64,000 nucleotides of DNA, from contig OZ237767.1 in the NCBI GenBank assembly GCA_965178125.1, forward strand, positions 558,001 to 622,000, read 5' to 3'. The notes under the pieces were generated by a model. That model was not told the origin of the DNA and ran no database searches. It saw only the letters and a list, made by a program, of their open reading frames with translations. Of the stretch, positions 30,902 to 57,749 are shown one piece after another. Each line of letters begins with the position of its first letter. Position 1 is the first letter of the stretch. The DNA is from Bilabrum cf. latius (taxonomy: Eukaryota). The position numbers and the translations under genes were made by a program.

Positions 30902-31326
30902 CCCCCCGCTACGGTAATAAATAAATTTATTCCCTTCGGTTAAGGATGATTAACATCATCAATAATTACGTTCAGTCAGAGCTAAAGCTCTTCCCTCTCT
31001 CCATTCCTTTTCTCGCTAGTCGCTCCAAAAGTCAAGGTGAGCCTCTTCATACTGCTACTTCATATAACTGCTTTATCCTTCTAATTATAGAAAATCAATT
31101 ATATATAAAACTCTATACGATGACCATATCCACAAATTGCGTATTAGTATATGTATTATTTAGCAAAACGTGGATGTAGCCCTCTTGTGAAGGTGTTCTG
31201 GGACTCTAGCCATTTTCTAGCCAAAAGTTCCATCACTTTATGGGACTCCATTATTCAACCTTCTAAACTACCTTCATTATACCCCCTTATCCTCGCTTAT
31301 ACCTTCACAAATGGAACAAACGCGCT
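30902..31326 (+). repeat. Left terminal inverted repeat (~425 bp)
   Basis: Reverse complement of 57329-57749 apart from a few SNPs and a swapped hairpin at 30945-30960. Confidence 0.95.
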
Positions 31327-31348
31327 TTTATTTTTAAATTGTTATAGA

Positions 31349-31367
31349 GCGTTTAAATTGACTTAAA
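31349..31367 (+). promoter_or_regulatory. Virophage promoter-like motif, consensus GCGTTTAAAATGACTTAAA (representative copy)
   Basis: Related copies end 28-31 nt upstream of the ATGs at 31396, 32505, 45900, 46332, 47751(-), 48267, 51588(-) and 54424(-). Partial copies precede 45027 and 47844. Confidence 0.75.
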
Positions 31368-31395
31368 AAATATATTTATTATAGGTATATACAGA

Positions 31396-32415
31396 ATGGA
31401 ATTATTAAAATGGGAAAATGGAACCTTGAAAGCTACACAACCAAAAGAATATTATGAACGAAATGGATTTTAGGTTAATTTTGAAGGGAAAACCTATCAT
31501 ATAGCAATGGATAAAGATTATATAAGATGGTTTTTGAAGGACTATAAACCTTATGAAATAATAACAACATTCATAACAGATATGAGTGAAGTATTCAATG
31601 GATAGGATAAATTTAATGAACCTTTGAATACTTGGGATGTTTCAAATGTTAAGGATATGAGTTTAATGTTTCAAAGTTGTAGAAGCTTTAATCAACCATT
31701 GAGCAATTGGGATGTTTCTAAGGTTGAAAAAATGTCGTCTATGTTCTATTTTTGTTCTAAATTCAATCAATCATTGAACGATTGGAATGTTAGTAATGTT
31801 AGGGATATGAGTGGTATGTTTGGTTCTTGTTCAAGATTCAATCAACCATTGGATAATTGGGATGTTTCTAAGGTTGAAAATATGTCCTCTATGTTTAATG
31901 GATGTTGGAACTTCAATCAACCATTGGATAATTGGGATGTTTCTAACGTTGAAAATATGTCCTCTATGTTCCATTATTCTGAATTCAATCAATCATTGAA
32001 CGATTGGAATGTTAGTAATGTTAGGGATATGAGTGGTATGTTTGGTTCTTGTTCAAGATTCAATCAACCATTGGGTAATTGGGATGTTTCTAACGTTGAA
32101 TATATATCCTCTATGTTTAATGGATGTTAGAACTTCAATCAACCATTGGATAATTGGGATGTTTCCAATGTCTAGAGTAAGTTTTAGATGTTAAAAGATT
32201 GTGAAAGTTTCAATCATTTAGAGAACGGTATTAAGGGTATAAGAATTGATTATTCTACAACATTGATACCGTTGTTAGAAAGACGAAAACATAAAACCAT
32301 TAAAAAAACAAAGAAATATAGAGAGGAATTAATTGCTAAAGCGTGGCACCCTTCAAGATTAGATTGGGTATTGGATAACGAGGAGCGAGACGAGATAGAG
32401 GATAATTTTAATTAA
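31396..32415 (+). CDS. DUF285/BspA-like repeat protein 1 (~339 aa, TAG read through)
   Basis: 22-aa repeats FNQPLxNWDVSxVxxMSxMF; C-terminal EELIAKAWHPSRL; TAA stop. Confidence 0.85.
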
Positions 32416-32504
32416 TAGAATTTTAATAATATTAATGATTATTTAATATTATAGTGTGAGTTTAAAAAGGCTTAAATAATATATTTATTATAGGTATATA
32501 CAGA

Positions 32505-33302
32505 ATGGAAGTTTTAAAATGGGAAAATGGAACCTTGAAAGCTACAAAACCAAAAGAATATTATTTTAGAAAAGATAATTATATTGTGAAATTTGAAGGT
32601 AAAACATATTACGTAGCTAAAGATACAGATTTTCTTCTTCACGCATTGTAGTTTTTGAAACCTGAATTATTAGTAACAACATTTATTACGAATATGTTAA
32701 ACCTATTTGATAATATGATAATTGAATCACCAATAAATTCATGGGATGTTTCAAATGTTAAAGATATGACCGATATGTTTTATGGGTGTCATTCGTTTAA
32801 TCAACCTTTAAATAACTGGGATGTTTCAAATGTTGAAGATATGGGCGGTATGTTTAATGAGTGTCATTCGTTTAACCAACCATTGAATAATTGGAATGTT
32901 TCAAATGTTGAAGATATGAGTGAAATGTTTAATGATTGCCATTCATTTAACCAACCATTGAATAATTGGAACGTTTCAAATGTTAAAGATATGTGCGGAA
33001 TGTTTTATGATTGCCATTCACTAAATCAACCTTTAAATAACTGGGATGTTTCAAATGTTGTAGATATGGAATGTATGTTTTCTAATTGTTTTAGTTTTAA
33101 TCATTTGGAGAATGGAATTAAGGATGAACGAATTGATTATTCCACGACATTAATCCCATCATTAGAAGAGCGGAAAGATGAAACAATTGAACAAACTAAA
33201 AAAATCAAAGAAGAATTAATTTCTAGAGCGTGGCACCCTTCAAGATTAGATTGGGTATTGGATAACGAGGAGCGAGACGAGATAGAGGATAATTTTAATT
33301 AA
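32505..33302 (+). CDS. DUF285/BspA-like repeat protein 2, tandem paralog (~265 aa)
   Basis: Same N-terminus (MExLKWENGTLKAT), fewer repeats, and identical last ~75 nt to gene 1. Confidence 0.85.
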
Positions 33303-33343
33303 GTTTTATTATAATAATTATTTTATTTTTAATTATTATAGAT

Positions 33344-34256: not shown

Positions 34257-34628
34257 ATGGATAAATTACAAAAAGTGATTAATACCCGCTCAAAGTTAAA
34301 GAATGAATTTCTTGATATTGTAGAAGACTTTAAGAAGACCAATCGTGAATTAGAACAAAAGTTAAAGCAACTAAAAATAAAAGAGACAGAATTAAAAAAT
34401 AAAGTGAATAGTAAATTAACCGCTCTTAATGTGGAATATAAAGAGGTGAGCAAAAAGAAAGCAGAAGCTATAGCCCCTTATATGAAAACTTTAAAAGCAT
34501 TAAAAGGAAGGATGACTGGATTGACAAAGAAAGACAAGGACAAGCTGATTGACGTTCATCAAGAGATAAGGAAAATTAAAGAATAGATTAAAGTAAATGA
34601 AGCTATTAATAGGCTTTTTAATTCGTGA
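34257..34628 (+). CDS. Coiled-coil hypothetical protein (123 aa)
   Basis: K/E-rich heptads; extended through the TAG at 34584 to TGA. Confidence 0.65.
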
Positions 34629-34668: not shown

Positions 34669-35826
34669 ATGAGTAAGAGAGGAAAGAAAAAAGATAATGA
34701 TATTAATGAGTCAAGTTTTGGATTTAATACGAAGTCTATCACGAACGATTTAATGAAGCCGATAAAGAAACCGAAAGGATTGAATTATGTTAAATATTAT
34801 AAACCTACTAAAGAGGGGCTTATCCAATAGGCTGATTTATTGTATCTCCCTTACGCTACCAAGAACGATTCAAAATATTTATTAGTTGTGATAGATACGA
34901 GCGGGTTAGCGTTAGATTTTGAAGAGTTAAAGGATAGAGGGGCGGAGGATGTGATAAAAGCTTTTCAAAAAATCTATAAAAGAAATTATTTAATGAAACC
35001 TAAAATGATACGAACAGATAAAGGGGGAGAATTTGATAATGAATTATTTAAAGAATATCTAAAGAAGAATAAGATAGAGCATATATTTTCAAGAGTGAAG
35101 CGTAAATCGTAGATGGCTTTAGTGGAGAGATTGAATGAGGAAATAGGGAGAGCTATATTTTATTATTTGAATTCATAGGAGATAAGAACGGGGACAACTA
35201 TCACGAACTGGAGACATTTAATACCAAAATTGAGGGAGATATTAAACGAGCGTTATAAAACAAGATAGGAAATGTTGAATAAGAAAAGGGAGAATCTACC
35301 ATATATACCGCCTAGATGTTAGGGTGAAGTATGTGATGTATTAAATGAGGGTGAAATGGTAAGAATAGGATTAGATTATCCTAGAAGTATAGAAGGGATA
35401 AAGGAAACCGGAGCATTTAGGGCGGGAGATATTAAATATAGCGTAAAGCCTTATAAAATTGAAAGAGTAATAATAAAACCAGATAACCCCCCATTATATA
35501 AAATTGAGGGCATACCCTATACATACTTTAATAGAGATTAGTTGTTATTAGCATCTAAACCATACGAGAATAAAGCACAAGATATATTTATAATTGAAAA
35601 ATTGATAAGAAAGAATAAAAATAATACATACAGGGTTAAATGGAAAGATTCATATGTTGATGAGGCTACTAAAAGAAAATATTAGAATGATATAGGTAAA
35701 ATAATAAAGAGAAGAAAGAATCAAGAGGGACAAGATGAATATTTAATTCAATGGAAGATAACAACGGAGCCGGCTAAAAATATATCAAAAACTCTAAAGG
35801 ATAATTTTAATAATAAGACTAAATAA
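34669..35826 (+). CDS. Retroviral-type (rve) DDE integrase with C-terminal chromodomain-like region (~385 aa)
   Basis: IQ*ADLLYLP (D), KYLLVVID, IRTDKGGEFDN (D), KS*MALVERLN (E), GEMVRI; C-terminal IEKLI..YRVKWK and IGKII..EYLIQWK..TEP. * = TAG. Confidence 0.92.
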
Positions 35827-36525: not shown

Positions 36526-38604
36526 TTATTTTAATAATCTTAGTTTTTCAAAGTGTTGATATAAGATTTGTTTTACCTTGTCCTTCACATTATGATTACC
36601 TTTACCACCGGCTATATTAAAATATTCTTGTTCAATTTGTCCTCCTTTATGCTTGCCACATCCACAACTACCGCCCCTATTCTATGTTTTTATTTTCTAA
36701 TCAATAATTAAATTAATAGCTTTCATTAACATATTATAAGGGTCTTTATTTCCAAAACCTTGAGCTGGTGGTGAATATGTCCATTGAGGCTTCCCGCTTA
36801 ATTCATATCCCGTATCGTTTAGTCTTGATTTTGCTAATGTTCTATCACTTCTGGTTGCTCTTCCTTCTGTATTTGCTCTAGCTACTAAAGACCTAACAGC
36901 ATCAGTTGATAAATTAGGTTGTAAGACTCCGGCTTTAAGCCTTCGTATAATATATTTTAAAGTGTTAATTGTTGGGCTGGCGTCTGTTGGATTTATTCCT
37001 CTTGCTTTTAACTATGATAATATTTCATTTTTATTGCCTTTAGCATTTATTGATTGTCCTATTGATTTGGCTATTTCATCATCTGTTTTCTGTGGTTCTT
37101 GTGGTTCTGCTGGTTCTTGTGCTGGTTCTGCTGGTTGTGCTTGTTGTGCTGGTTCTACGGCTTCTCCATCTCTTGGTTCTTCATCTGGGGCTCCCCTCCG
37201 TTCTCTAGCTTGTCTTTCTTTTTCTTCTTGTTGTCTTTGTGCTTCATCTCGTTCTGCCTGTGCTTGTCTTTGTCTGAATTGAACTTCTGTAAGTTGTCTT
37301 CCAAATTCATCTGTAATAGGTTCTCCATCTTCATCTACTGCCATCGCTTCACCTTTTCCTCTGTCTTGACCTGCGGGGGGTGCTTGTGGTTGTGAGCCTG
37401 TTTTTCCTGTTAAATAACTGATACCATCCATAACCGATTGTCCTAAAGAACCAAATGTGCTTTGTTGTTGTTCTGGTGATTGTCCTTGTTCTTGTTCTGG
37501 TGATTGTCCTTGTGGTTCTGGTGATGCTTGTAAGAATCCACTAGGTGGAACTGGTGCGGGTGATACTTTTGAAAACTAGCCTGATAAATTTCTACTGGCG
37601 TTCTCCCCTTCTTCTTCTTGTCCTGATGATTGTGATGCCTCTTGTTCTTGTGCTTTTTGTTTAAGTTCTGATAATTTCTTCTAAGCACTTTTTATAAAAT
37701 CAACTTTAGACCGTCCTTTTACACCTTTAACATTTGACTCTCTAAGTATTTTTGCTAGTTCGGTTTTCTTTGGTGCTTTTCTACTACTTGAAGGATTGGC
37801 GTTTGCTACTCTTTCAAGTGCTTCAATTTGTTCTTGTAGTTCTGGGCTTAATGCTTCTTGTGGTGTTGGAGGGGGTTTTGGTCTTGGTTCTGGTGGCGGT
37901 TGCGGGTTATCTGGTTCAGGTCTATCAGGTTGCGGGTCATCTCTTTGCTATTGTTGAACGGCTTCAGGAGGATTTAAAACATCCTATAAAGCATTAACAG
38001 CGTCATCAACTTTTGTTAATTGTGAAACATTCTATCCTTGGGGGGTTTTCGTGATTCCAGCTTGTCGTAAAGCGTTTCGTATTTGAACTGCTTTTAATCC
38101 TCTCATATCGCTTGGTAATTGTTCTAATACTGCGTCCCGTTGTGCTTTAGTGGTTGTAAATAATCTCATATTAATATTTTTAATTCCATCAAATACCTTT
38201 TTCTTATCGCTTGCTGGTCCTACTACCTACCTTACATTAATATTATTAATGGTATCTACAACCTATCTTTTTAATTTATCCGGTAAATCTGGATTTCTAT
38301 TTATAAATGATTGTAAATTTTCTATTTGATAAATTGGTAATTCTTTTTTAGCGTTCATAGTCTTAATATTTTTAATAATATTTTCAATTCCTTGTTGTTG
38401 TTGTTGTCTTTCAATTCTAACATCAATAGGAACATAATTAGCACGAAGGAAAGCATCATCTTTTAGGGTTTTTCTTCTGGCTTCTGCTTCATCTTCTTCT
38501 TGCTATATCATTAATCTAACTTGTGGGTCATTTTGTATCCTAAGTTGATTAGACCGTTTCTACATAATACCCTTCAGTAAATCATTAATTGTATTGTTTG
38601 ACAT
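36526..38604 (-). CDS. Large Gln/Glu/Pro-rich protein (~692 aa), possible virion core precursor
   Basis: A single frame once TAG is sense (includes CAA CAA TAG CAA). C-terminal di-glycine motifs NRGG, HKGG, IAGG. Confidence 0.7.
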
Positions 38605-39935: not shown

Positions 39936-40027
39936 CTTTTTTTGTGAGGAAGGATAGAAGAAGGAACCAACTTAATATTTTAAACCCGTGTGAATAAATG
40001 GTTTATTTTATTTTATTATTATATATA

Positions 40028-41098
40028 ATGCTATCTTTACAATATACGGAAAATAGCCATATTGTAGCTATTCAAAAATACAAAAAAACACAATAGAACC
40101 GGTTTATTTATTACGACCCGAACGCTAAAGATATTCAACACGTCAAAGCGGAAGAGATAACAGATGATGTTTTAAAATCTTATTACGGAGAAAGCCGAGT
40201 AAGATATAACGTTGATAAGGACAAGAAAAGGGAACAATTACATAAACTATTACAAGATGAATATATACGGTCAGTTTAGGAATTTGCGATTAAAGATAAT
40301 AGTCAATATTTACCTTTTCCTATGCTCTTTCCATAGGGGCGTGAATATGTGCGATTATTTGGTAAGAGTGGAAGCGGGAAAAGTCATTTAGCTTTACATT
40401 ATATAAGGATGTATAGAGGATTAAAATATAAAAATATGTATGTTATATCACCAATTCAAGACCCTAAATATAAAAGAGAAGGCGCGACCTTCATTGATAT
40501 AGATGATTTGGTTAAAGAGAATGAAAACACTTTATATAAGGAAAAAATGGCTTATTATAAAAAAATGAAATTAGAATTTAAATATAAGAAATCTTCTTTG
40601 ATGAAATCTAAACCTTTAGATGTTGTTATTGAAGCTGAAAGAAAGATAGAGGATTTGAAACCTGAGAAAGATTTAATAGAAAAAGGTTTTAAATTAAATG
40701 TTGAGTTTTTTAAAAAATTGACCGCTGAACCTAATTTATTTATTCTGGATGATTACGAAGGCTTTAAAAAAAGGAACCAGAAAGCAAAGGCTTATTTTTT
40801 ATTGGAAATCCTAGCAACTACAGGAAGGCACACAGCAAGTAGCGTTTTAGACATCACCCACAAAATAAGCGACGGTATGAAGACACGAACCATTATGAAC
40901 GAAATTACAACCCATATCATTTATAAAACAATTACAGCTAAAAGTTTAAAATATATTTTAGAAACAGTCTTAAGTTTTGACGCTCCTACTAGAAAACGAA
41001 TTAAAAAAACCCTTCATTCTCTCCCTCTCTTTGGTTATGTTGCTATTAATGTTGATAATAATTATGTAGTTAGCACAAAAAAAATATTTCTCTATTGA
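40028..41098 (+). CDS. FtsK/HerA (A32-like) genome packaging ATPase (~356 aa)
   Basis: Walker A GKSGSGKS, Walker B LFILDD, TTGRH arginine finger. N-terminus restored through TAGs. Confidence 0.9.
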
Positions 41099-41106: not shown

Positions 41107-41682
41107 ATGAACATAAACGACTTAAATAGACTAGTCCAAACACCGTTATCTCCTTTAGAAATTCAAAAATTAGGTGTAGCACATTTGAATTACAAACCTA
41201 GAATAGTTATTTACGATGATATTATTAAATAGACCTCATCTATTGAACATATTTTTGATGGTTATGACGGCGTAATTATTTATTATCCTAATAAAAAGAC
41301 GGGACTAAATAGCACATACGGTCATTATTGCGCTCTTACTTAGGACGAAAATAATAAAACTATTTATTTTTTTGATAGCTATGGAGAAAAACCCGACCAA
41401 TAGAAACCATTTATTAATAGAAACCAATTGTATCAAGGAGAAGGAGAAGAGAACACACTAGTTAAATATTTATTGACGTAGAAATTACACGGCTGGAAAA
41501 TTGACTATAATAATAAACCTATTTAGAGTTATGCTAATTAGAGTGCTACTTGTGGAAGATGGGCATTATTAAGAACTGTTTTCTCATTCTTAACTAATGA
41601 TTAGTTTGTAAATGAAATGTTTAGAATATCCAAAATTATGGCTCTTAGTCCTGATTAGTTAGTGGCGTTGCTTCTACATTGA
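41107..41682 (+). CDS. Adenain/Ulp1-like capsid maturation cysteine protease (191 aa; 8 in-frame TAGs; absent from the ORF track)
   Basis: YGHYCAL (His), YFFDSYG (Asp), I*SYAN*SATCGRW (oxyanion Gln encoded by TAG 41524-41526, catalytic Cys). Confidence 0.92.
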
Positions 41683-42018: not shown

Positions 42019-42972
42019 ATGAGTTATAGCGATGAATTTGTAAGATTGAATTTAGTTAGTTCATCTGTCCCCCACAATTAGACGAGATAGGCGGTAGTGA
42101 ATGAAACCCGTGAAGGCTTAATATTAAAACAAAGTGAAAATTATTTAACGGCTGTTGAAGAGATGGATTTAAATAAATTTATGCTACCGGTGTTTAAACC
42201 TGAATATTAGGATGACAGCGGTAAAACCTATTTAAAATTTACTCTTGAGAATAAAACATCAGGAGCCAGAGCAGGCGATTATATAGTTCTAGGTAAAAAA
42301 GCTAAATTTTATTATTCATATTAGGATATTGTAAATGAATTTAATGAAGAGTTAAGCCGAATTTGTGATTTGGTAAGCCTTCCAAGTGGTGATAAACCAT
42401 TCTTTAAATTTGAAAATAATAAATGGAGTTTATCAACAACTGAAGATTTTAGAGATAATTATTATTTATTTGTTAATTTTGAAGCTTTTGCTTTATTTGA
42501 TAAATTTGAATATGAAGGAATAACAACCACACCGAGTGATTTATTTGCTAAACTTTCATATAATAATTCCCCTGCTAGTGGTGATTATGTTTTTATGGCT
42601 AGATAGACGAATTTAAATTCTTGGTGCCCTGTTAAATCTATTATCGTAGAAAGTGATATTCCAGTGAATAAAGAATTGGTGACCACAAAATCATCTACTG
42701 GTGGCTCTATAGCCGTCAATAAATCCCCTATATTAACCAGCTACCCGTATAATCCTAATGACAGCTCACCAATAGAAAATATATTATATGTTTCTAATCC
42801 TTACCGCTGGTATTCAATGATGAAGGATAGAAGCTTTAAGAGCGTGTCAATGGCGTTCTACTGGGTTGATAAACAAAATGAAAAGTATCCCGTAATGAAT
42901 TTTAACGGGGGTGAAGCTCACATTAAACAAGTATTTAAAAAACAAACCGATAATTTAAGTTTAGATTTTTAA
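42019..42972 (+). CDS. Minor capsid protein (penton), ~317 aa
   Basis: NETREGLIL...NYLTAV...LPVFKP, SWCPVKSIIVESDIPV, YRWYSM, FYWVDK. Located directly upstream of the MCP. Confidence 0.85.
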
Positions 42973-43043: not shown

Positions 43044-44933
43044 ATGGCTCAACAAATGGTTCAGAATTTACCAGTAAGCATTAAGGCTCCTAAAAGCCTT
43101 CAAATGATAACCCCTGAAGATGCTAGTTTAGGAACAGAACTAGGTGTTCAAAAATATACCCGCCGAGAAATTAGACCATCATCTAATCAATCTAATTCTC
43201 TTCTTCCCCTTTCTTTCCCCGTTAATCCTACTAGTAAAACCGTATCAAGGTTTATTCGTCTTCGTCATCGTATGACAGTTAGGCTACAACTAGAGCAAGC
43301 AGTACCAGCTCAAACTGCGGGAGGTGATGCTATTACCGCTCAATCTTATCTTAAATCTAGGTTTGGAACTAATTCATTACCTACCTTTAAAATGCTTCAA
43401 GGTGGTGTTTTAACAATTAATGGATAGCCTTTTACAGTAAAAGTTTATGAATGGGCTGAACCTACTGAAGTTATGAACAGTGAAGAAACCTTATCCACAA
43501 TCTCACCCGTTGGACGCCCTGACACTGTTGGTGATTATCGTGAAGTAAGTGATACCCTTAAAAATCCTTTAGCTTGGGGTTAGGATGTTGGATATAGTGC
43601 CGGTGATAGCTTTAGTTATCGTGGAGCATATGGGAATGCTTTTACGACTGTAAGTGCTGATTTCGTTGCGGGTAATAGAGACCAAATTGATTGGACTATT
43701 GATTTTCAAGAAGCTATACCACTAAAAGGAGCAGATGTTGATGTGAATGCTAAATATTTCACCGGTGTGAGAAGCCTTCAGGTTGATTTAGATTATCACG
43801 TAAATGCCATTCAAAGACTGTGTAAGGCTAGTTTTACAAAAGATAACGGAGATATTAACAAAATAACGGGTTAGTCAATTATAGGAGAAACAAATACGAC
43901 CCTTCTTGTTGATGAAGTTGAATTTTAGAGTGGATACGCCCCCCCGACTCGTTGTATGTATAATATGCCTACAATTAAATTTTAGTCTTAGGCGCCTGTC
44001 CCTGTACCTAAATCCGCAACTGAAAATTCTTTAACTTCTTTTGATTATCAATTATCCCGTGAGAATGGTATCCCTAGTGCTATTATGGTATGTGCCCGCC
44101 TTGTTGGTTGTGATGATAACCCTAACTGGGCTAATAGAACTTTACCAATTAGAAGAATAGGTTTCTCACTCAATGGAAGCGCTGAGGAATTAGGGGCTGT
44201 AGATAATCCACACGAATTATATAGAATTAGTAGAAAGAACGGATATGCTCTTCCTCCTTCATCCTTTTATGGTTCATCAATTGATGGAAGTGATGGAAAC
44301 CGCGGTACTGGTTGTTATATGATTTTAAAACCTTCAGATGTTGCTACACTTGCTGGTGTTCAATCTAATGTAAATACTGGATTTAATCTTAAAGTTAATC
44401 TTCAGTGCTTCAACCCTTATAATAAATATGCGGATGGTGCGTATGAGGATAAATACGAGATAAAAGTATGGATGTTTTATGATAATGTTCTTGTGAATGA
44501 TAACGGTGTCTATACTGAGTCTGGCGCCCTTATTGAGCCTTCTAAAGTGCTTTCTGAACTTGCTAAACGTGGTGATGCTGAAAGTGGTTCTAAAGGTTTC
44601 TAGCCTGTATTTGAGGATTTAGATAATTATGCTAATGTTATGGGTGGAAAAGGTCGTTTCTGGTCTAAGATTGGACGAGCCTTTAAACACGGATGGAACA
44701 AGGTTAAAGATTGGGCAAAAAGTGATTAGGCTAAAAACCTAGCGAAAACCATTAGGAATATAGGACCACTCAAAAGTCTAACAGGAGACAATAGCGCTAT
44801 TGGCAAAGCGGCGGCACATTATGGATATGGAAATAGTGGAGGAGAATTAAATAAATTAGGAGGGAAACTTACGATGCGTGGAGGTGCGGCAATGAAAACA
44901 GACGATCTTGAGGCCCTTTTGAGTACGAGTTGA
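43044..44933 (+). CDS. Virophage-type major capsid protein (~629 aa) with di-glycine-cleavable C-terminal extension
   Basis: One frame through TAGs. VSRFIRL, IPSAIMVCAR, LPIRRI, ELYRISRKNG and GFNLKVNL match the virophage MCP pattern. Tail VMGG-KGRFWSKIGRAFK; TGA at 44933. Confidence 0.9.
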
Positions 44934-45026: not shown

Positions 45027-45812
45027 ATGGCGGACTATTCAAAAGGATACATCTATAGAATTGATAGCGAACATTGTGAGCTTCCATATATTGGTTCATC
45101 AATTATGAATAAAGAAAAGAGGTTTAATATTCATAAGAAGGATTACAGATATTACAACGAGGGGCGAGAGAACTCTTTTTATATTTCTAGTTATGAAGTG
45201 GTTAAATATGATGACGCAAAAATTACAGTTATTGAGGATTTCCCTTGTGAAAATAAAAAACAATTAGAAGAGCGGGAGGGCTATTGGTAGAGGCAAATAG
45301 AATGTGTGAATATTAGAATAGCAGGAAGGAGCAAAAAGCAATACAGACAAGAGGAAAAGCAAAGGATAAAGGAAGCAAGACAGAAGCACTATCTAGAGAA
45401 CAAAGAGAAAATAATTCAAAAGTGTAAAGAGTATGTAGCAAATCATAAAGAGGAGACAGCAGAGAGAAAAAGAAAATGGGCTGAAGATAATAAGGAAAAA
45501 TTGAAAGATTATAGGAAAAAATACGCAAAAGACAACGCTGAAAAGATAAAAGCGTATAGAAAAGAGAGACGGGAGCATTATAATGAATTGTAGAGAGAAA
45601 GAAGGAGAAAATAGAGAGAGGCGGAAGGTAAAGAACCAATATAGAAGCTAACCCCTGAAGAGAAAAAAGCTAGAAAAAAAGCTTAGAACAATAGAGAGGT
45701 CATTTGTGAATTTTGTGGTGCTAAGTCTAACGTAGGACATATAAGAAGACATCAAAGAACGAAGAAATGTCAAGCGATACAACAGGAATTAAAGGACAAA
45801 GAAACAAGCTAA
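45027..45812 (+). CDS. GIY-YIG nuclease-family protein with coiled region and C-terminal zinc finger (~261 aa)
   Basis: KGYIYRI...PYIGSS..KRFNIH..EREGYW; C-terminal CEFCG...RHQRTKKC. Confidence 0.85.
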
Positions 45813-48266: not shown

Positions 48267-49766
48267 ATGATAAATTACGAAAATGTGTTAAATCAATTAA
48301 ATATATGCTTTGGTAAAAAGTATGATAACCCCATTCAATCCGTAAAGTATCTAGAAAAGGTATTTAACGGTAAGCCCATAACTACAAAGAACCTTTATAA
48401 ACTTGTTTCAGGTCTAAAAATGGATATAGAGATTAGAGAGAAAGACGATATAAAGGTCTATTATCTAAGTAGGAAAAAAGAGAGTTTTAAAAGGGTTTGT
48501 TTAGAATATAAAGATGGTTCATTTAAAGCCGTCTAGAGGATGAAACCTTTATTTGTGCGGTGCCATAAATCTATGGTTGTTAAATTAACCGATAAAGCCG
48601 AAATAATTGAAAAAGATAAATATAGAGTTGAGAGCCTGACCGATTATCATTCAAAGAAATATTATCTTCATTACACCATTCACGAATGCCCAGAGGATGA
48701 AGATATCAAAGAATGGAGCTTAAGGCTGAGTATAGCAAGTGATGAATTACACGACGAGAACCCATCATTAGATGTAATGAAATATGGAATCAGACAAACA
48801 GCCCTTCATTTCTTTACAATGTTTAATATGATGATAGATAGCCCACCAGATATAACCCCAGAGGAAGCGGTATTTATTGAAGGTTCAACGCGTGGCGGGA
48901 TTCAATATCACAAGAAGGGACAATATGAGGAGTTTATCACCTACGATATAAATAGTCATTACCCCGCCATTATGTCATCTAATTCACTACTACCATATGG
49001 AAATCCTATTTATAAAACAATTGATAATAAATATATAAATAATAAAAACGAAATAGGGATTTATAAATGTAAGGTAAGCCGTGGAAAATGCGACCCGAAT
49101 ATCTTTCAAATGATGAAGGTATTTGAAAATGAATTTACTTATTATGTCTTTACAGATATGAATATGTTTGTTAAATATGGTTGTGAGATAGAGATGTCAA
49201 GCGACGAATTTAATTTTATGACCTATGATAAATATATCAAAAGTGAAACACTTTTTAAATCCTATGTCTCAATGTTCTACAAATTAAAAAGCAAATCATA
49301 TCTAGCAAAAGAAATATTAAATTCATTATGGGGTAAATTATGTAGTTCCTCTAAAAAGACAATTACATCAAAAGACGATAAAAAAATAAATATAGATAAA
49401 TTTGATATTGACCGTGTAGAAATGGATAATGACGGAGAATTTATTTATCATTTGAAACATAAAGTACCCTTTAAATATAGCTGGGGAAAATTGAAACCTT
49501 TTATTCTGGCATATGGAAGACAACGATTGATGAAGAAAGTGAATAAGAACAACGCTAAACATATTATACGAATTCACACCGACAGTATCACATTTAACAA
49601 AAGATTAAATTTTAAAGTAGGTAAAGAATTAGGTGAATATAAAAAAGAATAGATAAATGAAGAAGGATAGAAATTAATTATCCACGGATAGAATGATTTA
49701 ATGGTCGTAAATGAAAAAGAAGAAATTATATCAAGGAAAGGAAAAAAAGGCGGTTTAATGCTTTGA
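48267..49766 (+). CDS. Protein-primed family B DNA polymerase, compact (~499 aa)
   Basis: TRGG, motif A YDINSHYP, motif B KEILNSLWGKL, ILAYGR, motif C IHTDSI, ELGEYK. Confidence 0.9.
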
Positions 49767-49960: not shown

Positions 49961-50668
49961 ATGAATGATAATATACCTAATTATGTTAATAGTCCTAAAT
50001 TATGGCGTCAGGCAGTTGAGAAAGTAAATAGAACGTATAAAAAGCCTTCAGCTTATCGTTCATTAGCATATTTTGCTCGTTATAAAAAACTAGGGGGGAC
50101 ATATGATAAAATTAAATTAAATGAAGCATAGAAAAATTTACGACGATGGAAATTAGAGGATTGGAAGAATTAGAAGGGAGAAAAGGGATATTAGGAAAAA
50201 GGAGATATATATAGACCCACTAAAAGAATAAATAAAGAGACCCCTTTAACCTTTGGAGAATTAGACACGGAAGAAATAGAGGAAGCAATGAAGGAAAAAT
50301 TTAATAACGGACACGTGAAATCATTTAGACCTAAACCAGTTTTTAATTTATATAAATCAACTAAATCAAATAAAAAATATATGATTAAAGTAGTTCAAGG
50401 TAATAATATTCTGTTTACTGTTCATTTTGGTGGAATTAAGAATGATGGTACCCCTTATATGGACTTTATACAATATTATAATAAAGATGGAGAGAAGGAA
50501 GCAAACCGTAAAAAGAAAAATTATATTAAAAGACATTCAATAAATGAAGACTTTAAAGACTATAAATCCCCCGCTTTTTGGTCTAGGTTTGTATTATGGA
50601 ATGAACCAACATTAAAAGATAGCTTTATGGACGCCGTAGATAGAGCTAAAAAATTAATGAAAGTTTAA
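49961..50668 (+). CDS. Fusion of two small giant-virus/virophage domains (DUF5872-like + DUF5754-like), ~235 aa
   Basis: PSAYRS..YKKLGGTY..LRRWKLEDWKN*KG..IYRPTKRINKETPLTFGEL, then STKSNKKYM..VHFG..YIKRH..SPAFWSRFVLW. Family names are from memory. Confidence 0.65.
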
Positions 50669-51646: not shown

Positions 51647-54424
51647 TTAAATATTCTGATCTAATCGTTCGTTGGATTCCTTGTATATGTCCTTCATTTC
51701 GGGATACTAATATTTATAAACTTCATCAAATAATTCTTTCTCCTTGGTGAATTTAATTCTTAATTCTCTATCCTTTTTATCCTTTTTATTCCCCATACTC
51801 CAGGAGGTTTTAATATTTCCAAATAACTACTTATATAATTTTACTATTGCCCCGTGTAATTCACTATCGGTTTCTATTGGCTTCTATAATCTCGCCCCGC
51901 TTACTTCTACATATCTTTTACCCATTTCTATATATTTAATGGATTTCTCATTTTTACGTGTATAACTTAAATCAAATTTATTCAATTTAAGCGTCTATAA
52001 CATCTCCTACAATATGATTATTTTATTCTTTGTACTTTTTGCTTTCTCATCCTTAAAATCCTTTCTATCCTTTAATTCTGTCATTAGTTTATATTTATCT
52101 TTTCTCTTAAAATTAGCATAATTAAAATAATTCATTAATTTGTAATTATCAATTAATAACATTTTAATATCCTCCGTTATGGCTGTCTCTGGTAGCCCTA
52201 AAATTTCAATTCTTCTTTTTATATGGTCGTTCTCTACATCAAATGAATCAATCTATTCTTGTAGTACCTCCATTGTCGCCTCTTTCATCTGCTATTTATT
52301 CATTCGTTGTGGTAATTCCTTATCCACCTATACATCGGCACCCCTGTTTTTAAGAATAAGCTATAAATGAATATATTTATTTGTTTCGTATGTATCACAT
52401 TTGAAATTATATAATTTCTTGAGTGGTAAATAAACCTTATATGATGCCTCTATCATTGCTTTATGGGCTATCTCTTCATCATCTTCTCCCTCAAAAATAT
52501 CAATGTCAATATCATTCTCCTACATTATCCTTTTTTCGTATTTTTCTAATTTAGTATATAAATCTGTCTATGCGTTAATTTCCATATTTAAGGTCGTCTA
52601 TACCTCCTTTAAATTCTCATATCTTGGATAAATGGATTTTACATCTTCAAAATATATATTCATATATTCGGGATTTCTACATCTTGCCAGTTGCTACATC
52701 ATCTACGGCGGTAGAATCGTTTTTCCTTTATATAATCCATACACTGGGCGCTCCATTACACTATCTAATCCGTAAATGACTTTAGGACTAAATATAATTT
52801 TATCATATTTATCTAAGCTCACATCCTCATCAGGTAATAAATCACTAGTAATTAATTTAACGTCCTCTATACCATCTTTACATAACATTTTATAAAATGT
52901 ATCTGCGTTCTTCTTGCTATCACACGCCAGTATAAATTTATCTTCACTTTTTAATTTATCGTAAAATTTCTATTGGTCTTTTTCAAAATATACTTTTACG
53001 TCCTTAAAATGCTTATATTTATTCTTAATGAAGCTAAATTCTACTCCAGCACATTTTAAAAATTTCATCGCTATCTGGGATATGTCAGCATCTACAGCAA
53101 TAAACTATTTACACGTCCTTATCATTTTTAAAATAATAAATAATACAAGAACCCTATTATTATTCATCGTGGTAGAACTTAATATATGCTCTATAATGCT
53201 ATTGAATTCATCCAAAAATACGATGTATTTAGAAAAATCATAATTCACAATTTGGGGGATACTTTCCGGCGTAATAATAAGAGACTATCCAAAATCAAAA
53301 GTTTTATTCTGGTAGAACTCACATTTAATATCTTCATTTAAAAAGCTCTCGTATTGCTCTGTGCCTAAACATACACGGGATACAATGGATAAGAACGGCG
53401 TTTGAACCTGTTTAATGTATTTCTTAAATGCTGTTGTTTTACCTGTTCCTGTATCACTTTTTACCACATAATTATATTCATATTTAAAAAATCGTTCGGG
53501 CTTCTCTATATCATCTAATTTAGGTTTATTAATTTCTGTATACCCGTTAATATTCTCGTCATAAGGACGATAATAACACTTTGAAATATACTTATCTTTC
53601 ACAAATGCCTTTAAACTTTTATCATTCTAAATTATTGAATTAACTAAATTAAAGGTTTTTAACTTATCAAAATAATGGATAGAGTTCCACACCTTGTTAT
53701 TTTTGTGGTAGTCGTATTTATTGCCCTTCTTGCTCCACTCCTACCACTCCTTCTTAAATCCTAAATATTTACTCGCTAGGGTTGCTTTATACCAATCACT
53801 ATAATTATTTAAATATTTCTTATCTAGTCTATTTAATATAATTGACCAGTCTTTACCATTTAAAATGAATTTCATCATACAGTTATTCACATCTTGATTA
53901 TCAATTTTTGATATCCTTTTACTCGCCCCTTTTACGTTGGATTTCTTAGAGGATTTAATAATATACTTTTCATAAAATTTATAAAGCTCCTTAGGACATT
54001 TTTTTATTTCTACATTATTAATAACTTCGTATTTTGACCCATTTATGCCACTTGGTGGTGCCACTACATAAGCCCCATCATTCCTAATATCAACGTCAAT
54101 ATCTCTATTGGTGGTAGTTAATATATTCTAATCATATTTAAAATATAGATGATACCCTCCACCCGCTGTTTTAACCGTGAATGTGTTGAACCGCTTCACA
54201 AAGTCATCTGAAAATTTCTTGATGAATAAATGCTCCTTCTTATCGCTCCATTTATATGAATCAATATCAAACACGGTTATATTATTAATTTCTCCGGTGA
54301 TAATAGCCATATTCTGATTATTAAATCGTTTAGGCTCGGGTTTGGTGAGATATCGCCAGCTTTTAACATCAGGTATTTTTTGATTGTGCTTGATGGGGAA
54401 ACTAACGAGGTTTTTATTATTCAT
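51647..54424 (-). CDS. Prim-Pol (AEP) + PriCT-2 + UL9-like superfamily-2 helicase fusion (~925 aa)
   Basis: NMAIITG..VFDID, TAGGGYHLYF, DIRNDGAYVVAPPS; YSDWYK..W*EWSK; KSDTGTGKTT, SIVSR, FLDEFNS, VDAD, FSPKVIYGLD, MM*QLARCRN. Track fragments share one frame. Confidence 0.88.
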
Positions 54425-54579: not shown

Positions 54580-54775
54580 TAACACCTTCTAAAGTGATGG
54601 AACTATTTTTAAAAATTATCTAAAGGTCCCATACCACCTTCACAAGAGGCCCTACATCCACGTTTTGCTAGAAATACTATATAATTATACGCAATTTGTG
54701 GATATAGCCATCGTATAGATTTTAATATAGCGGTTATATTAAAATATTTTATTAAATTCTAGCCCGTTTATTAAG
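54580..54775 (-). repeat. Internal inverted copy of the TIR-related element (core 54656-54703)
   Basis: accttcacaagaggccctacatccacgttttgcta...tacgcaatttgtggatatagccatcgta. Confidence 0.85.
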
Positions 54776-54787
54776 TTGTAGGGGCTT

Positions 54788-55558
54788 TTAATTATAGATA
54801 TCTTGTAGTTTTTCGTGTTCGGCCTTCACATCAAGGGTCAAATATACCCGGCTATTCCAAAACTCAGGGCTGTTGATATCATCGCTATTATTAATATTAT
54901 AATTCCTTTTTATTTTTGATATCATAATTTGTAATTTACGAGGGCTAAACTATTTCTTAAGAGCCTCTACATCGGGTAAATTAATTTCACCAAAAAATAC
55001 ATCATTTCCATTTACGGACACTTTATACCTATAGTCTCCGTCTTCTAGCCTTTCTAGGTCTCCTATTATTTGTTTCTCTTCCTCAGGTATCATTTCATCA
55101 TCACTTTCTGCTTCTATCTAGTCTTGTTCGGTACTAACGCTGTTTATTTCACTTTCACTGTCAGGCTCCATACCGGTAAATTTTTCATCTATTGCGGTCT
55201 ATCTAATTAATTCTGGCGGTTGTAAATCATCTACATCATTATAAATTTTATTATTCTGTGGTTTATAGTCATTAAATTTATCTAGAATGTATGTTTGGTT
55301 AATTTCAAGCTGGTCGTTATTATCGTGTTGTATCTTCTGTTTCTCTTCTTTCTTGGGTTTTTTGACGGCTTTTTTCTCTTTAATATCACTAACTATATTT
55401 TTATTAATTAATTTAGACGTGGAAAACCTTCCACCTAAATCTACATACGTAGTAATGGTCTCTAAAATTTTTTGCGTACTATCTGTAATATGGTCTGTAG
55501 CCTTATAAATCTGCTTCATTAGGACGGGATTTTCAATGACATAATTATTAAAGTTCAT
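54788..55558 (-). CDS. Acidic hypothetical virophage protein (~256 aa)
   Basis: Track ORF extended through TAGs to TAA at 54788. Confidence 0.65.
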
Positions 55559-55870
55559 ATCTATAATACTAAGTTATAATTTTTGAGTTTTAAAAAAACG
55601 CTTAGAGGTGGGGGGGTTATGTGGGGGTTATCCCTAGCCTTTAGGCTAGGGTTATGGGTCTGGCTTCAATTATTCAATCCAATTCTCCTTCCTTTGCGGT
55701 TCCATCCGTCAGTTTATACCCTCCTGCCCTACATTTTCATCACTTCCTCGTGCTGGAACTTCTCACTGCTACCACTGGAATCGGCTATCGTCTACCACCT
55801 TCTCATCTTCATCTTCGGAACCTGTGCTACGCCAAAATTTATCTGGACCACACATAAAACACATAAAACA

Positions 55871-56338
55871 ATGGCCGGGGTTTCTACAGATGTTAATGAT
55901 GAAGTAATGAAGGCGCTTATTGCTGGTATTGAAGACATTGGAGCAGTGGGCGAGGAGTGGGACAGGGTTCTTCAATCTTTTGACGGCGAGACTGCCACGG
56001 TGAAGCTAGGCGAGGAAATCCAGACCTATGAGATTATCACCGAAGAAGAAGCAGACAAACGTTTGGACGACCACGCTACAGAGACGCTTGCTTCCTTCGT
56101 TCCTGCGTTCCTCTCGCGCTTCCTGCCTTGCGATGCCGATATCATAAGCACCGCTACCGCTGACGCGAACCACAGCGAGGCTTTAAGCGCCCTTCTTAAG
56201 TCATTTATAGTGGCTTAGGGGCGCTGGGACGACCTCATTCAGGCCTGTAAAGATGAGGACGGGCTGGGACATTTTCTAAACAGCTACGACGGGAGCACGA
56301 GCGAGCAAAATGGATACGTGGTGATGCGTGTGGATTGA
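55871..56338 (+). CDS. Hypothetical protein (155 aa) in the higher-GC terminal cassette
   Basis: ATG at 55871, one TAG (56216), C-terminal EDGLGHFLNSYDG..YVVMRVD, TGA. Confidence 0.7.
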
Positions 56339-56521
56339 TTGGATTGACTGAGACCACAAATGAAACATTGAAATGCTCTTCAATGCGGGATTCCACCCGT
56401 GTCAATGCTGGAAGCACGGTTCGTACCCTGCTACACACGACAGCGTGGCCACTCCAATATAGCCGTGTCCCTACCAATAACAAACACGACAATTTATAAT
56501 AAAAAAGGTTGTTCAACCTTC

Positions 56522-57215
56522 TCACTTCTCCATCTTGGGCTAAGAACCCGCCGTCCGGGGATAGTCCTGGATGAGATTCTCATTGCCGCGAAACCGCTTG
56601 GCTGGTGCGGCGATGCCAGATTCCAGAAGAAGCTACTTGTTGAAGTCTTGGCGGCGCTTCCTCTTCTGGTTCTTCTCCAAAACATCACCAACGAGCGATG
56701 GGATGTCATATGCTGGAAGAAATGGCTTGAGGATAGCCATTTTCTGTGCCAAGAACGCCTGTGTCTGCCTCGTCTCCGCGTAATCTCTGCCGTGATGTAG
56801 AATCTTCAGCACGCCATTAATCCGGTCAAAGTCAGCATCGGTATCGTCAAGACTCCCCTTGGGGAATATTGAAGCGATAACAGCGAGTAGAGCCTTTGAG
56901 TTGACGCCTGTCGGTTCCAATGCTCCGACCGCCTCCCGAATTGCCTTCTCCAGCGACTTCCCGGTTTGCTCAACGAGGTGCATGTCCCCTAGTAGCCTTG
57001 AATGCGCTTTCAAAAGCTTCTTGGGGTTCTTCTCGGTTTGTACGGTGTCCTGGAAGGTGAGTAGCGCTTCCGTTCCCGTTTTCTTGCGTTGGTCGGGCTT
57101 GAAGAGCTGCGTTGGCGAGCAAAACCGGTGCGATAGATACAGATACGGTCAGCAAAGCAATTTCCATATGTTGATTATCTATCCTGTGGATTCTTACCTC
57201 AATCTTGCGGTCCAT
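56522..57215 (-). CDS. Intron-containing hypothetical gene (exons 57198-57215 and 56522-57106, ~200 aa)
   Basis: ATG GAC CGC AAG ATT GAG|GTAAGA...GCTGAC...ACGCAG|CTC TTC AAG. A 91-nt phase-0 intron joins the ATG to an upstream-open frame. Confidence 0.65.
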
Positions 57216-57328
57216 ATCTATTGTTTTAGGCTGGTGAAGTGATCAGCTGGCCTACAGCGTCATCGTTCCGGGGTGTATTGAACTGTGGCGCTTGTGGTAT
57301 TGCGATGACGAGTGTAGCAAGTTGCTGT

Positions 57329-57749
57329 AGCGCGTTTGTTCCATTTGTGAAGGTATAAGCGAGGATAAGGGGGTATAATGAAGGTAGTTTAGAAGGTTGA
57401 ATAATGGAGTCCCATAAAGTGATGGAACTTTTGGCTAGAAAATGGCTAGAGTCCCATAACACCTTCACAAGAGGGCTACATCCACGTTTTGCTAAATAAT
57501 ACATATACTAATACGCAATTTGTGGATATGGTCATCGTATAGAGTTTTATATATAATTGATTTTCTATAATTAGAAGGATAAAGCAGTTATATGAAGTAG
57601 CAGTATGAAGAGGCTCACCTTGACTTTTGGAGCGACTAGCGACAAAAGGAATGGAGAGAGGGAAGAGCTTTAGCTCTGACTGAACGTAATTATTGAAACT
57701 TGTTTCCTTAACCGAAGGGAATAAATTTATTTATTACCGTAGCGGGGGG
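57329..57749 (-). repeat. Right terminal inverted repeat (~421 bp)
   Basis: Reverse complement of 30902-31326. Confidence 0.95.

What the first reader, a model, noticed from the sequence alone, without database searches (positions are those of the whole stretch)
30902..57749. Endogenous virophage written in a reassigned genetic code (UAG = Gln, UAA/UGA = stop)
Seen: nearly every viral gene is interrupted only by TAG, never by TAA, TGA or a frameshift, and the restored genes end in TAA or TGA. TAG occupies positions where homologues need Gln: the protease oxyanion residue (I*S..TCGRW, 41524), integrase Q*ADL and S*MALVER, helicase motif VI M*QLARCR, WKN*KG, and a CAA-CAA-TAG-CAA run. The 191-aa protease alone has 8 TAGs. 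Known: characterised virophages such as mavirus and Sputnik use the standard code, and split UAG/UAA meaning is rare in eukaryotes. Inference: this virus is long adapted and restricted to a recoded host, its helper giant virus must tolerate the same code, and standard pipelines would miscall it as a decayed relic.
Basis: partly seen in the sequence, partly recalled or inferred. Interest (0 to 1): 0.95.

Follow-up and report, generated by a model that had tools for sequence, protein, structure and literature searches.

The report
Virophage provirus using TAG for glutamine
An intact virophage genome sits in the chromosome of a GC-rich protist, and both virus and host read the stop codon TAG as glutamine, so standard gene finders would wrongly call the virus dead.

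Summary
Window 30902-57749 is a 26,848-bp, ~29% GC element in a 60-72% GC eukaryotic genome. It has ~425-bp terminal inverted repeats and a 5-bp target-site duplication inside a 121-bp satellite.

With TAG read as sense, 24 ORFs (7,089 codons) cover 79% of it. They hold 103 in-frame TAG and end in TAA (18) or TGA (6).

The genes are mavirus-like: capsid, penton, protease, rve integrase and primase-helicase.

TAG behaves as glutamine:
- It falls on a column that is Q in 144 of 144 aligned helicase homologues.
- It falls on a protease column that is Q in every homologue.
- A profile test infers Q, with 29 of 31 control codons inferred correctly.
- 39 related helicase genes from metagenomes have no in-frame TAG.

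The host flanks use TAG too. One 2,883-codon frame has 10 TAG and no internal TAA or TGA, and one tandem repeat has CAG six times and TAG once at the same position.

Independent assemblies from two studies carry the same TAGs.

Verdict: a probably active, EMALE-like endogenous virophage adapted to a host with UAG=Gln and UAA/UGA=stop. Endogenous viral elements in a host's variant code have one precedent (Streblomastix). My searches found no virophage and no Cafeteria-related host with this code.

The parts
30897..30901 (.). Left copy of the 5-bp target-site duplication CAGCC
   Evidence: The satellite unit consensus has CAGCAGCCTGGGC once at this point.
30902..31326 (+). Left terminal inverted repeat (~425 nt)
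   Evidence: pairs I7 (45 nt, 100%) and I1 (368 nt, 99%).
31396..32415 (+). DUF285 repeat protein, 339 aa, 5 TAG
   Evidence: PF03382, E 1.1e-86. Promoter-like motif at 31351.
32505..33302 (+). Second DUF285 repeat protein, 265 aa, 1 TAG
   Evidence: PF03382, E 8.4e-55. Motif at 32460.
34669..35826 (+). rve integrase with a weak chromodomain-like C-terminus, 385 aa, 7 TAG
   Evidence: PF00665, 43 bits against a cutoff of 32.6. Chromo E 1.8e-4, below its cutoff. PFV integrase matches in PDB.
36526..38604 (-). 692-aa low-complexity Q/P/E-rich protein, 12 TAG, with the CAA-CAA-TAG-CAA run
   Evidence: No Pfam family.
39998..41098 (+). P-loop NTPase at the position of the virophage packaging ATPase, 366 aa, 3 TAG
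   Evidence: Walker A GKSGSGKS is visible. No Pfam or PDB hit for the protein itself. Homologues on virophage-like contigs hit generic P-loop families weakly.
41107..41682 (+). Cysteine protease, 191 aa, 8 TAG
   Evidence: 39% identical to mavirus PRO, E 3.5e-29. Alignment.
42019..42972 (+). Penton (minor capsid) protein, 317 aa, 5 TAG
   Evidence: PF21507 Sputnik V18/19, 29.2 bits against a cutoff of 27.
43044..44933 (+). Major capsid protein, 629 aa, 8 TAG
   Evidence: PDB 6g45 (putative MCP; I recall it as mavirus), E 2.5e-8, residues 92-615. PF22031 E 0.0035, below its cutoff.
45027..45812 (+). 261-aa protein with a GIY-YIG-like N-terminus, 5 TAG
   Evidence: Motif seen by eye. A homologue on L001 hits PF01541 at E 0.0022, below its cutoff.
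48267..49766 (+).
   Evidence: No Pfam or PDB hit. Motif at 48221.
49961..50668 (+). DUF5872 protein, 235 aa, 3 TAG
   Evidence: PF19197, E 8e-21. TAG positions.
51647..54424 (-). Primase-polymerase / PriCT_2 / helicase, 925 aa, 20 TAG
   Evidence: PF09250 E 7.1e-16 and PF08707 E 3.2e-6. 3,972 homologues. TAG column analysis.
55650..57328 (.). 1.7-kb mid-GC (45-55%) segment of unknown content next to the right TIR
   Evidence: ORFs there have no Pfam family.
57329..57749 (-). Right terminal inverted repeat
57750..57754 (.). Right copy of the target-site duplication CAGCC
15146..23797 (+). Host ORF of 2,883 codons with 10 in-frame TAG, no internal TAA or TGA, ending in TAA
   Evidence: The other five frames have 16-33 TGA and 3-6 TAA.
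5512..10185 (-). Host ORF whose tandem repeat EEEGKQA has CAG in six units and TAG in the seventh

Best explanation
This is an intact, recently integrated mavirus-like endogenous virophage of the EMALE kind. Its host is a GC-rich, intron-poor protist whose nuclear translation reads UAG as glutamine and keeps UAA and UGA as stops.

Shown here:
- The element's ends, target-site duplication and gene set.
- TAG is an abundant sense codon in the viral genes and also occurs in the host genes beside it.
- TAG columns behave like Gln columns.
- Sibling copies diverge mainly at third codon positions.

Inferred:
- The rve integrase inserted the element into a 121-bp satellite.
- On infection by a helper giant virus, the virophage genes are transcribed from the repeated upstream motif. 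It is found 8 times, 28-46 nt before start codons.
- The mRNAs are translated by host ribosomes, with a host tRNA-Gln(CUA) and a release factor that ignores UAG.
- Because CAG to TAG is then silent, the AT-biased virus has turned most G-ending Gln codons into TAG (TAG 103, CAG 20, CAA 186).
For: Anatomy
- TIRs, TSD and a GC drop from 60-72% to about 29%.

Gene set
- MCP matches the mavirus MCP.
- Penton is above the Pfam cutoff, and the integrase and primase-helicase have Pfam families.
- Protease is 39% identical to mavirus PRO.
- The gene order NTPase-protease-penton-MCP is the mavirus order (PMC8547959, passage).

TAG is sense
- 103 in-frame TAG in 24 ORFs.
- Alignments run across the TAGs.
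- ORF cover rises from 0.29 to 0.79, against a median gain of 0.012 in 53 related loci.
- 39 of 39 related helicase genes have no in-frame TAG.

TAG is Gln
- In 145 helicase homologues, Q is enriched 4.9-fold at TAG columns. One column is Q in 144 of 144 and another in 79 of 145.
- Profile log-odds give Q 9.1, K 4.0, E 3.6, and the same method gets 29 of 31 control codons right.
- In seven other genes, Q is the commonest residue at TAG columns: 9 of 55 cells, against 13 of 69 at CAA/CAG columns and a background of 3.6%.
- Protease columns 99 and 140 are Q in mavirus PRO and P0274.

Host
-.

Real, not an artefact
- A 4,091-nt contig from a second organism label and study covers 34600-38686 with 3 differences, none in a TAG. 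All 21 TAG codons in that stretch are therefore reproduced.

Selection
- Of the 40 listed differences to sibling copies (of 356), 28 lie at third codon positions and 25 are silent.
Against: - With raw profile emissions instead of log-odds, the helicase TAG columns favour K, then E, then Q. I read that as the K-rich composition of these proteins, but it shows that most TAG columns are variable polar sites. The Gln call rests on a few strongly conserved columns plus the host contexts.
- P0271, the 88% identical full-length protease with Q at 5 of the 8 TAG columns, comes from a collection whose gene caller I do not know. If that caller reads TAG as Q, the row is circular.
- No tRNA-Gln(CUA) is in the window, and no genome is held to look for one or for eRF1.
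- Host ORF strands and gene models are unverified. Only six long frames were used.
- Activity, virion formation and dependence on a giant virus are untested.
Confidence: 0.88

Rival explanations
1. The element is a decayed relic in a standard-code host. Its TAGs are nonsense mutations from CAG-to-TAG deamination, for example of methylated CWG sites, which would also put them at former Gln codons.
For: In-frame CAG is scarce: 20, against 186 CAA and 103 TAG. That is what wholesale CAG-to-TAG conversion would leave.
Against: - CAG is not depleted out of frame: 104 and 31 in the two other frames.
- Host ORFs beside the element also carry in-frame TAG and no TAA or TGA.
- There is no TAA, TGA or frameshift in genes that align end to end with homologues.
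- The TIRs are 99-100% identical.
- Sibling differences are mostly third-position and silent.
- A truly decayed relative, L053, has all three stops in every frame.
Confidence: 0.03
2. The recoding belongs to the virus alone, as in crAss-like and Lak phages. The host would use the standard code, and a suppressor tRNA from the virophage or its giant virus would read TAG during infection.
For: TAG is about four times denser in the element (103 of 7,089 codons) than in host frames (33 of 8,447). Phages with TAG=Gln in standard-code hosts are known (PMC9523058, abstract in listing).
Against: - Host frames hold TAG in Gln contexts, including a CAG/TAG alternation within one tandem repeat.
- The coding frame of the 2,883-codon host ORF excludes TGA and TAA but not TAG.
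- No tRNA gene lies in the element.
- The density difference fits AT against GC bias.
Confidence: 0.04
3. TAG is a sense codon but stands for another residue, such as Lys, Glu or Tyr, or is read ambiguously.
For: Raw emission likelihood on the helicase ranks K first. Many TAG columns hold D, E or K in homologues.
Against: - The invariant or near-invariant columns are Q.
- Log-odds favour Q, with controls 29 of 31 correct.
- The residue spectrum at TAG columns matches that at CAA/CAG columns.
- Host TAGs lie in QQxQ and GQGxG runs and alternate with CAG.
Confidence: 0.03
4. The TAGs are an assembly or sequencing artefact.
For: Published endogenous virophage assemblies have contained false stop codons (PMC8547959 and PMC10120064, passages).
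Against: - Six runs from two studies and two organism labels hold the stretch.
- Contigs of four runs agree, with 0-14 differences per piece of 0.5-4.1 kb.
- Artefacts would not produce only TAG.
Confidence: 0.01

Closest known systems
Mavirus and the endogenous mavirus-like elements (EMALEs) of Cafeteria burkhardae (PMC8547959, abstract and passages read)
   Same: - A low-GC element in a high-GC host, with TIRs and a short TSD (EMALEs mostly 3-5 bp).
- An rve integrase and a primase/helicase.
- The ATPase-PRO-PEN-MCP order.
- Type-specific upstream promoter motifs and many copies per genome.
- The MCP and protease here find mavirus proteins as their best named matches.
- The host's GlnRS groups with the Cafeteria clade (SH-aLRT 97, 31 rows, one gene).
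   Different: - Mavirus and the EMALEs are described in the standard code. Here one third of Gln codons are TAG.
- The similarity is distant: MCP E 2.5e-8, protease 39%.
- The MCP found nothing in a 5.8-billion-protein word search or in IMG/VR.
- The host GlnRS is only 49% identical to Cafeteria's.
- No Ngaro retrotransposon was seen.
Endogenous Polinton/Maverick-type viral elements of Streblomastix strix that use the host's code (PMC10120064, passage read)
   Same: An integrated double-jelly-roll virus element written in its host's non-standard nuclear code. It was read there as a sign of long association.
   Different: There both TAA and TAG mean Gln, the host is an oxymonad, and the elements are Maverick-type, not virophages. 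Here only TAG is reassigned. That paper's supplements were not seen.
Nuclear code with UAG=Gln but UAA=stop, as in Iotanema spirale (PMC5304391, abstract read); NCBI table 15
   Same: The same split: UAG is sense (Gln), while UAA and UGA terminate.
   Different: A different lineage (Fornicata). No virus was described there. Here the evidence comes from DNA frames only, without transcripts.
Code-15 bacteriophages (crAss-like, Lak; PMC9523058, abstract in listing)
   Same: A virus genome rich in TAG=Gln that standard gene callers fragment.
   Different: Those phages recode against a standard-code host and often carry suppressor tRNAs. Here the host shares the code, and no tRNA is in the element.

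Membership tests
Virophage, mavirus-like (EMALE kind) | Virophage-type double jelly-roll major capsid protein | tested here: met
   PDB 6g45, putative major capsid protein, E 2.5e-8 over residues 92-615. Pfam MCP_V20_C reaches only E 0.0035, below its cutoff.
Virophage, mavirus-like (EMALE kind) | Penton (minor capsid) protein | tested here: met
   PF21507 V18-19, 29.2 bits against a cutoff of 27.
Virophage, mavirus-like (EMALE kind) | Maturation cysteine protease | tested here: met
   39% identity to 'PRO [Cafeteriavirus-dependent mavirus]', E 3.5e-29. The H and C motif regions are conserved in the alignment.
Virophage, mavirus-like (EMALE kind) | FtsK/HerA-type packaging ATPase | tested here: inconclusive
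   A Walker A motif and the right position in the gene order, but no Pfam or PDB hit. Homologues hit only generic P-loop families, near or below cutoffs.
Virophage, mavirus-like (EMALE kind) | Integration module: rve integrase, TIRs and a short TSD | tested here: met
Virophage, mavirus-like (EMALE kind) | Replication depends on a co-infecting giant virus | not testable with these tools
   The only hint is a repeated upstream motif: 8 matches against 0.13 expected. Its likeness to mimivirid early promoters is recalled, not tested.
Polinton/Maverick | [quoted passage not shown] | tested here: inconclusive
   The 499-aa ORF at 48267-49766 has no Pfam or PDB match. Polymerase-like motifs were seen by eye only.
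Nuclear code UAG=Gln, UAA/UGA=stop (table 15-like) | In-frame TAG in conserved genes, at columns where homologues have Gln | tested here: met
Nuclear code UAG=Gln, UAA/UGA=stop (table 15-like) | Host nuclear genes also use TAG as sense | tested here: met
   Six long host frames hold 33 TAG and no internal TAA or TGA. Frame contrast, the CAG/TAG repeat, and neighbourhood p=0.0086. This covers the window only.
Nuclear code UAG=Gln, UAA/UGA=stop (table 15-like) | TAA and TGA still terminate | tested here: met
   24 of 24 viral ORFs end in TAA or TGA. Protein ends agree with homologues for the protease and helicase.
Nuclear code UAG=Gln, UAA/UGA=stop (table 15-like) | tRNA-Gln with a CUA anticodon and an altered eRF1 | not testable with these tools
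   No genome is held. The only tRNA in the window is tRNA-Cys.

The most novel reading that the evidence does not exclude
The host is a so far unrecognised relative of Cafeteria (bicosoecid-like stramenopile) whose nuclear code has reassigned UAG alone to glutamine. A whole three-partner system of host, giant virus and many virophage copies has moved into that code together.

With one TAG per 69 codons, the virophage could not express a single core gene in a standard-code cell. The code itself would then act as a host-range barrier that isolates this virus community from that of its standard-code relatives.
Probability: 0.5. Interest if true: 0.8.

Novelty: new variant of a known kind. Interest (0 to 1): 0.7.

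Why it matters
Codes that split UAG from UAA are rare in eukaryotic nuclei (PMC5304391, abstract). This window gives DNA-level evidence for one in a lineage whose nearest named relative is Cafeteria, the model host for the virophage and giant-virus system.

It shows a virophage fully at home in such a code. That implies the helper giant virus is translated in it too. It also offers a natural test of whether a code change isolates a host's viruses from those of its relatives.

There is a practical side as well. Gene callers that use the standard code cut this element into pieces; one such piece is already in a public protein collection (P0150). Surveys of endogenous viruses could therefore score active elements as dead.

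Tried and rejected
Searches that found nothing or could not run
- MCP with X at TAG: no hit at E<=1e-5 among 8,000 scored candidates. No pattern match in IMG/VR.
- No whole genome is held for the window, so genome-wide code inference, tRNA and eRF1 searches, and copy counts were not possible.
Their folds and families stay open.
- PDB searches of the protease, the 499-aa ORF and the NTPase gave only chance-level hits.
- Rfam found no match at E<=0.1 in the element.
- No RNA holder was listed among the sequencing runs, so expression is unknown.

Analyses I set aside
- TCTATAG, as a candidate second promoter motif, is not enriched: 11 matches against 6.4 expected, and 7 of 100 shuffles reach 11. 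I dropped it.
- Raw-emission likelihood for TAG gave K. I replaced it with log-odds and codon controls.
- L053 first looked like a TAA-recoded relative. It is simply degraded, with all three stops in every frame.
- The DUF285 repeats were tried as an internal TAG/Q control. All 10 FNQ motifs use CAA, so they say nothing.

Literature
- Searches for a virophage with a variant code, or for a bicosoecid or stramenopile with UAG=Gln, found none.
- These searches cover open-access papers and bioRxiv only. Supplements could not be read.

Full report
WHAT IS THERE

The window is a 60-72% GC sequence with a sharp island of about 29% GC between roughly 31 and 56 kb. The island is bounded by inverted repeats at 30902-30946/57705-57749 (45 nt, 100%) and 30959-31326/57329-57696 (368 nt, 99%).

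The pentamer CAGCC stands on both sides of it. The element lies inside a 121-bp satellite array, with 19.4 copies at 28539-30901 and 24.1 copies at 57841-60778, 98% matches. The unit consensus carries that pentamer once at this point. The duplication is therefore real, and so is the integration.

THE STOP-CODON PATTERN

- Under the standard code the region gives 19 ATG-ORFs of at least 100 aa, the longest 370 aa.
- With TAG read as a residue it gives 31, the longest 925 aa, tiling the element.
- In 24 non-overlapping ORFs (7,089 codons, 21,339 of 26,848 nt) there are 103 in-frame TAG.
- 22 of the 24 ORFs carry at least one TAG.
- All 24 end in TAA (18) or TGA (6).

The absence of TAA and TGA in these ORFs is by construction, so I looked for tests that are not circular.

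- The 925-aa primase-helicase aligns in one stretch, residues 5-924, with a 933-aa homologue across all 20 of its TAGs.
- The capsid protein aligns 92-615 with PDB 6g45 across all 8 TAGs.
- The protease aligns to its last residue with mavirus PRO.
- Cover by ORFs of at least 150 codons rises from 0.29 to 0.79 when TAG is sense. For 53 related metagenome loci of at least 5 kb the median gain is 0.012 and the largest 0.175.
- In 39 of 39 related helicase genes (675-933 codons each, 21-47% GC) the matched frame has no TAG at all. The window's gene has 20.
- A truly degraded relative, L053, has all three stops in every frame.

WHAT THE ELEMENT IS

Pfam and PDB give these assignments:

- An rve integrase: 43 bits against a cutoff of 32.6.
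- A Sputnik V18/19-type penton: 29.2 bits against 27.
- A primase-polymerase with PriCT_2 and a helicase part.
- Two DUF285 repeat proteins and a DUF5872 protein.
- A capsid protein that matches the solved mavirus MCP at E 2.5e-8. The mavirus identity of 6g45 is my recollection.
- A protease 39% identical to the record named PRO of Cafeteriavirus-dependent mavirus.

The order P-loop NTPase, protease, penton, MCP (39998-44933) is the mavirus morphogenesis order described for EMALE types 4-7 (PMC8547959, passage).

The NTPase is assigned by its Walker A motif and its position only.

The low GC in a high-GC host, the TIRs, the 5-bp TSD and the many sibling copies in the sequencing runs all match the EMALE picture.

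WHICH RESIDUE TAG ENCODES

Helicase. I aligned 145 of the 150 listed homologues. Five were dropped: the 107-aa fragment P0150 and four shorter than 600 aa.

- Q is the most enriched residue at the 20 TAG columns (4.9-fold).
- Column 577 is Q in 144 of 144 sequences that have a residue there.
- Column 440 is Q in 79 of 145.
- The other columns are variable polar sites.

A profile test gave mixed results at first. With raw emissions it ranks K, then E, then Q, which reflects the K-rich composition of these proteins. With log-odds against the profile's mean composition it gives Q 9.1, K 4.0 and E 3.6. The same procedure infers 29 of 31 standard codons with at least 8 columns correctly.

The two closest relatives have Q in 9 of the 40 TAG-column cells (3 of them gaps). 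At the query's CAA/CAG columns they have Q in 8 of 30.

Protease. Columns 99 and 140 are Q in mavirus PRO and in P0274. Column 140 is Q in 4 of 4 homologues that I translated myself by the standard code from metagenome loci.

Seven genes other than the helicase. Q is the commonest residue at TAG columns, 9 of 55 cells. At CAA/CAG columns it is 13 of 69, and the background is 3.6%.

One row needs caution. P0271, an 88% identical full-length protease, has Q at 5 of the 8 TAG columns. I do not know which code its gene caller used, so it may be circular.

- The helicase and protease sites hold.
- WKN*KG is a TAG but lies on a V/I column.
- The integrase S*MALVER site has Y and Q in homologues and S in PFV integrase.

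THE HOST READS TAG TOO

With only TAA and TGA as stops, the flanks hold frames of 2,883, 1,558, 1,280, 1,217 and 1,004 codons carrying 10, 9, 4, 6 and 6 TAG.

In 15146-23797 the coding frame has no TGA, one TAA (its terminator) and 10 TAG. The other five frames have 16-33 TGA, 3-6 TAA and 9-19 TAG. Selection there removes TGA and TAA but not TAG.

Host TAGs sit in runs such as QQxQ, HEQxQxQ and GQGxG. They have a CAG or CAA within two codons in 10 of 33 cases, the highest value of any codon with at least 25 occurrences. All codons together give 13% (binomial p 0.0086).

In the tandem repeat EEEGKQA, six units have CAG and the seventh TAG at the same position.

Host usage is CAG 256, CAA 41 and TAG 33 in 8,447 codons. 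The element has CAA 186, TAG 103 and CAG 20. Both use the same code under opposite base bias.

A eukaryote-type glutaminyl-tRNA synthetase gene with no TAG lies at 1078-3597.

- Its nearest records are unnamed (97% and 78% identity).
- The best named relative is Cafeteria at 49%.
- In a quick 31-row tree the window groups with the clade that holds Cafeteria, SH-aLRT 97.

This is one gene with thin sampling, so it is a lead on the host's affinity and not a placement.

REAL, AND UNDER SELECTION

Six runs from two studies and two organism labels hold the stretch. A 4,091-nt contig of the second organism covers 34600-38686 with three differences, all silent A-to-G changes. All 21 TAG codons of that stretch are therefore reproduced.

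The runs also hold diverged sibling copies. In one run, 71 of 235 laid pieces are under 90% alike.

Of the 40 differences listed (of 356; the rest were not shown), 28 are at third codon positions and 25 are silent when scored one at a time. 36 of the 40 lie in the protease gene and come from one sibling. That same sibling changes one TAG to AAC and shows no listed change at two other TAGs lying between its changes.

This argues for purifying selection on frames that run through TAG. A full dN/dS could not be computed.

HOW IT PROBABLY WORKS

Shown:

- The integration anatomy.
- The gene set.
- The sense use of TAG in virus and host.

Inferred:

- Host ribosomes translate the virophage mRNAs using a tRNA-Gln(CUA) and a release factor blind to UAG. 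Neither could be sought, because no genome is held and no such tRNA is in the window.
- With 20 TAGs in one gene, leaky readthrough cannot give full-length protein, so decoding must be efficient.
- Since CAG to TAG is silent in this code, AT pressure explains why TAG outnumbers CAG five to one in the virus.

A 17-nt motif, GTTTAAANTGNCTTAAA, occurs 8 times with up to two mismatches, against 0.13 expected and none of 100 shuffles reaching 8. All copies are in the element, 28-46 nt upstream of start codons and on the gene's strand. It precedes the two DUF285 genes, the helicase, the 499-aa ORF and others, but not the capsid genes. I read it as a promoter for one temporal class, served by the helper virus. 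Its likeness to mimivirid early promoters is from memory.

That the helper giant virus must live with the same code follows from shared ribosomes, but it was not tested.

COMPARISON AND NOVELTY

- The split code (UAG=Gln, UAA stop) is known from Iotanema spirale (PMC5304391, abstract). I recall it also as NCBI table 15.
- Endogenous virophages are well described in Cafeteria (PMC8547959).
- Endogenous Maverick-type elements of Streblomastix strix have been reported to use their host's TAA/TAG=Gln code (PMC10120064, passage).

Each ingredient therefore has a precedent.

What I did not find in seven full-text searches is a virophage in a variant code, or a Cafeteria-like or stramenopile host with UAG=Gln. 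The searches cover open-access papers and bioRxiv only, and supplements were closed. The genomes behind the 2025 runs may also already be described elsewhere.

I rate this a new variant of a known kind, of considerable interest to people working on genetic-code evolution and on virophage, giant-virus and host systems.

Noticed in passing
28539-30901 and 57841-60778: The virophage sits inside a 121-bp satellite array: 19.4 and 24.1 copies, 98% matches. A tRNA-Cys gene follows the array at 60765-60837.
   Followed up: partly
31083-31200, 41714-41838, 47000-47157, 54630-54754, 57476-57573: A conserved element of about 110 nt occurs five times, once in each TIR and in three intergenic gaps at gene 3' ends. 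Its core folds into a stem-loop of about 60 nt with two compensatory pairs. There is no Rfam match. It may be a transcript-end or replication signal.
   Followed up: partly
55650-57328: A 1.7-kb segment of 45-55% GC lies inside the element next to the right TIR. Its ORFs have no Pfam family. Its origin is unknown; it could be cargo or a remnant of another insertion.
   Followed up: partly
1078-3597 (minus strand): A eukaryote-type glutaminyl-tRNA synthetase gene lies 27 kb from the element and has no TAG. This is the enzyme that would have to charge a tRNA-Gln with a CUA anticodon, so its anticodon-binding domain is worth comparing with standard-code relatives.
   Followed up: no
5512-10185, 11358-15011, 15146-23797, 23911-27753: The host flank is packed with very long, intron-free, low-complexity frames rich in Ala, Gly and Ser. 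They are up to 2,883 codons long and mostly have no Pfam family. One carries long repeats with a near-identical unit of about 50 aa.
   Followed up: no
Public protein record P0150 (matches window 51647-54424): A 107-aa public protein is 99% identical to helicase residues 121-227 and stops just before the TAG at codon 228. It is a standard-code miscall of this virus family that is already in a database.
   Followed up: partly
L053:1757-3566: This metagenome relative of the helicase has all three stop codons in every frame: 9 TAA, 8 TAG and 20 TGA in the matched frame. It is a truly decayed copy and useful as a contrast.
   Followed up: yes
31396-33302: Two tandem DUF285 repeat-protein genes with 75-nt internal repeats sit at the left end. 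Each is preceded by the promoter-like motif and by a near-identical 30-nt leader. This looks like duplicated cargo.
   Followed up: no
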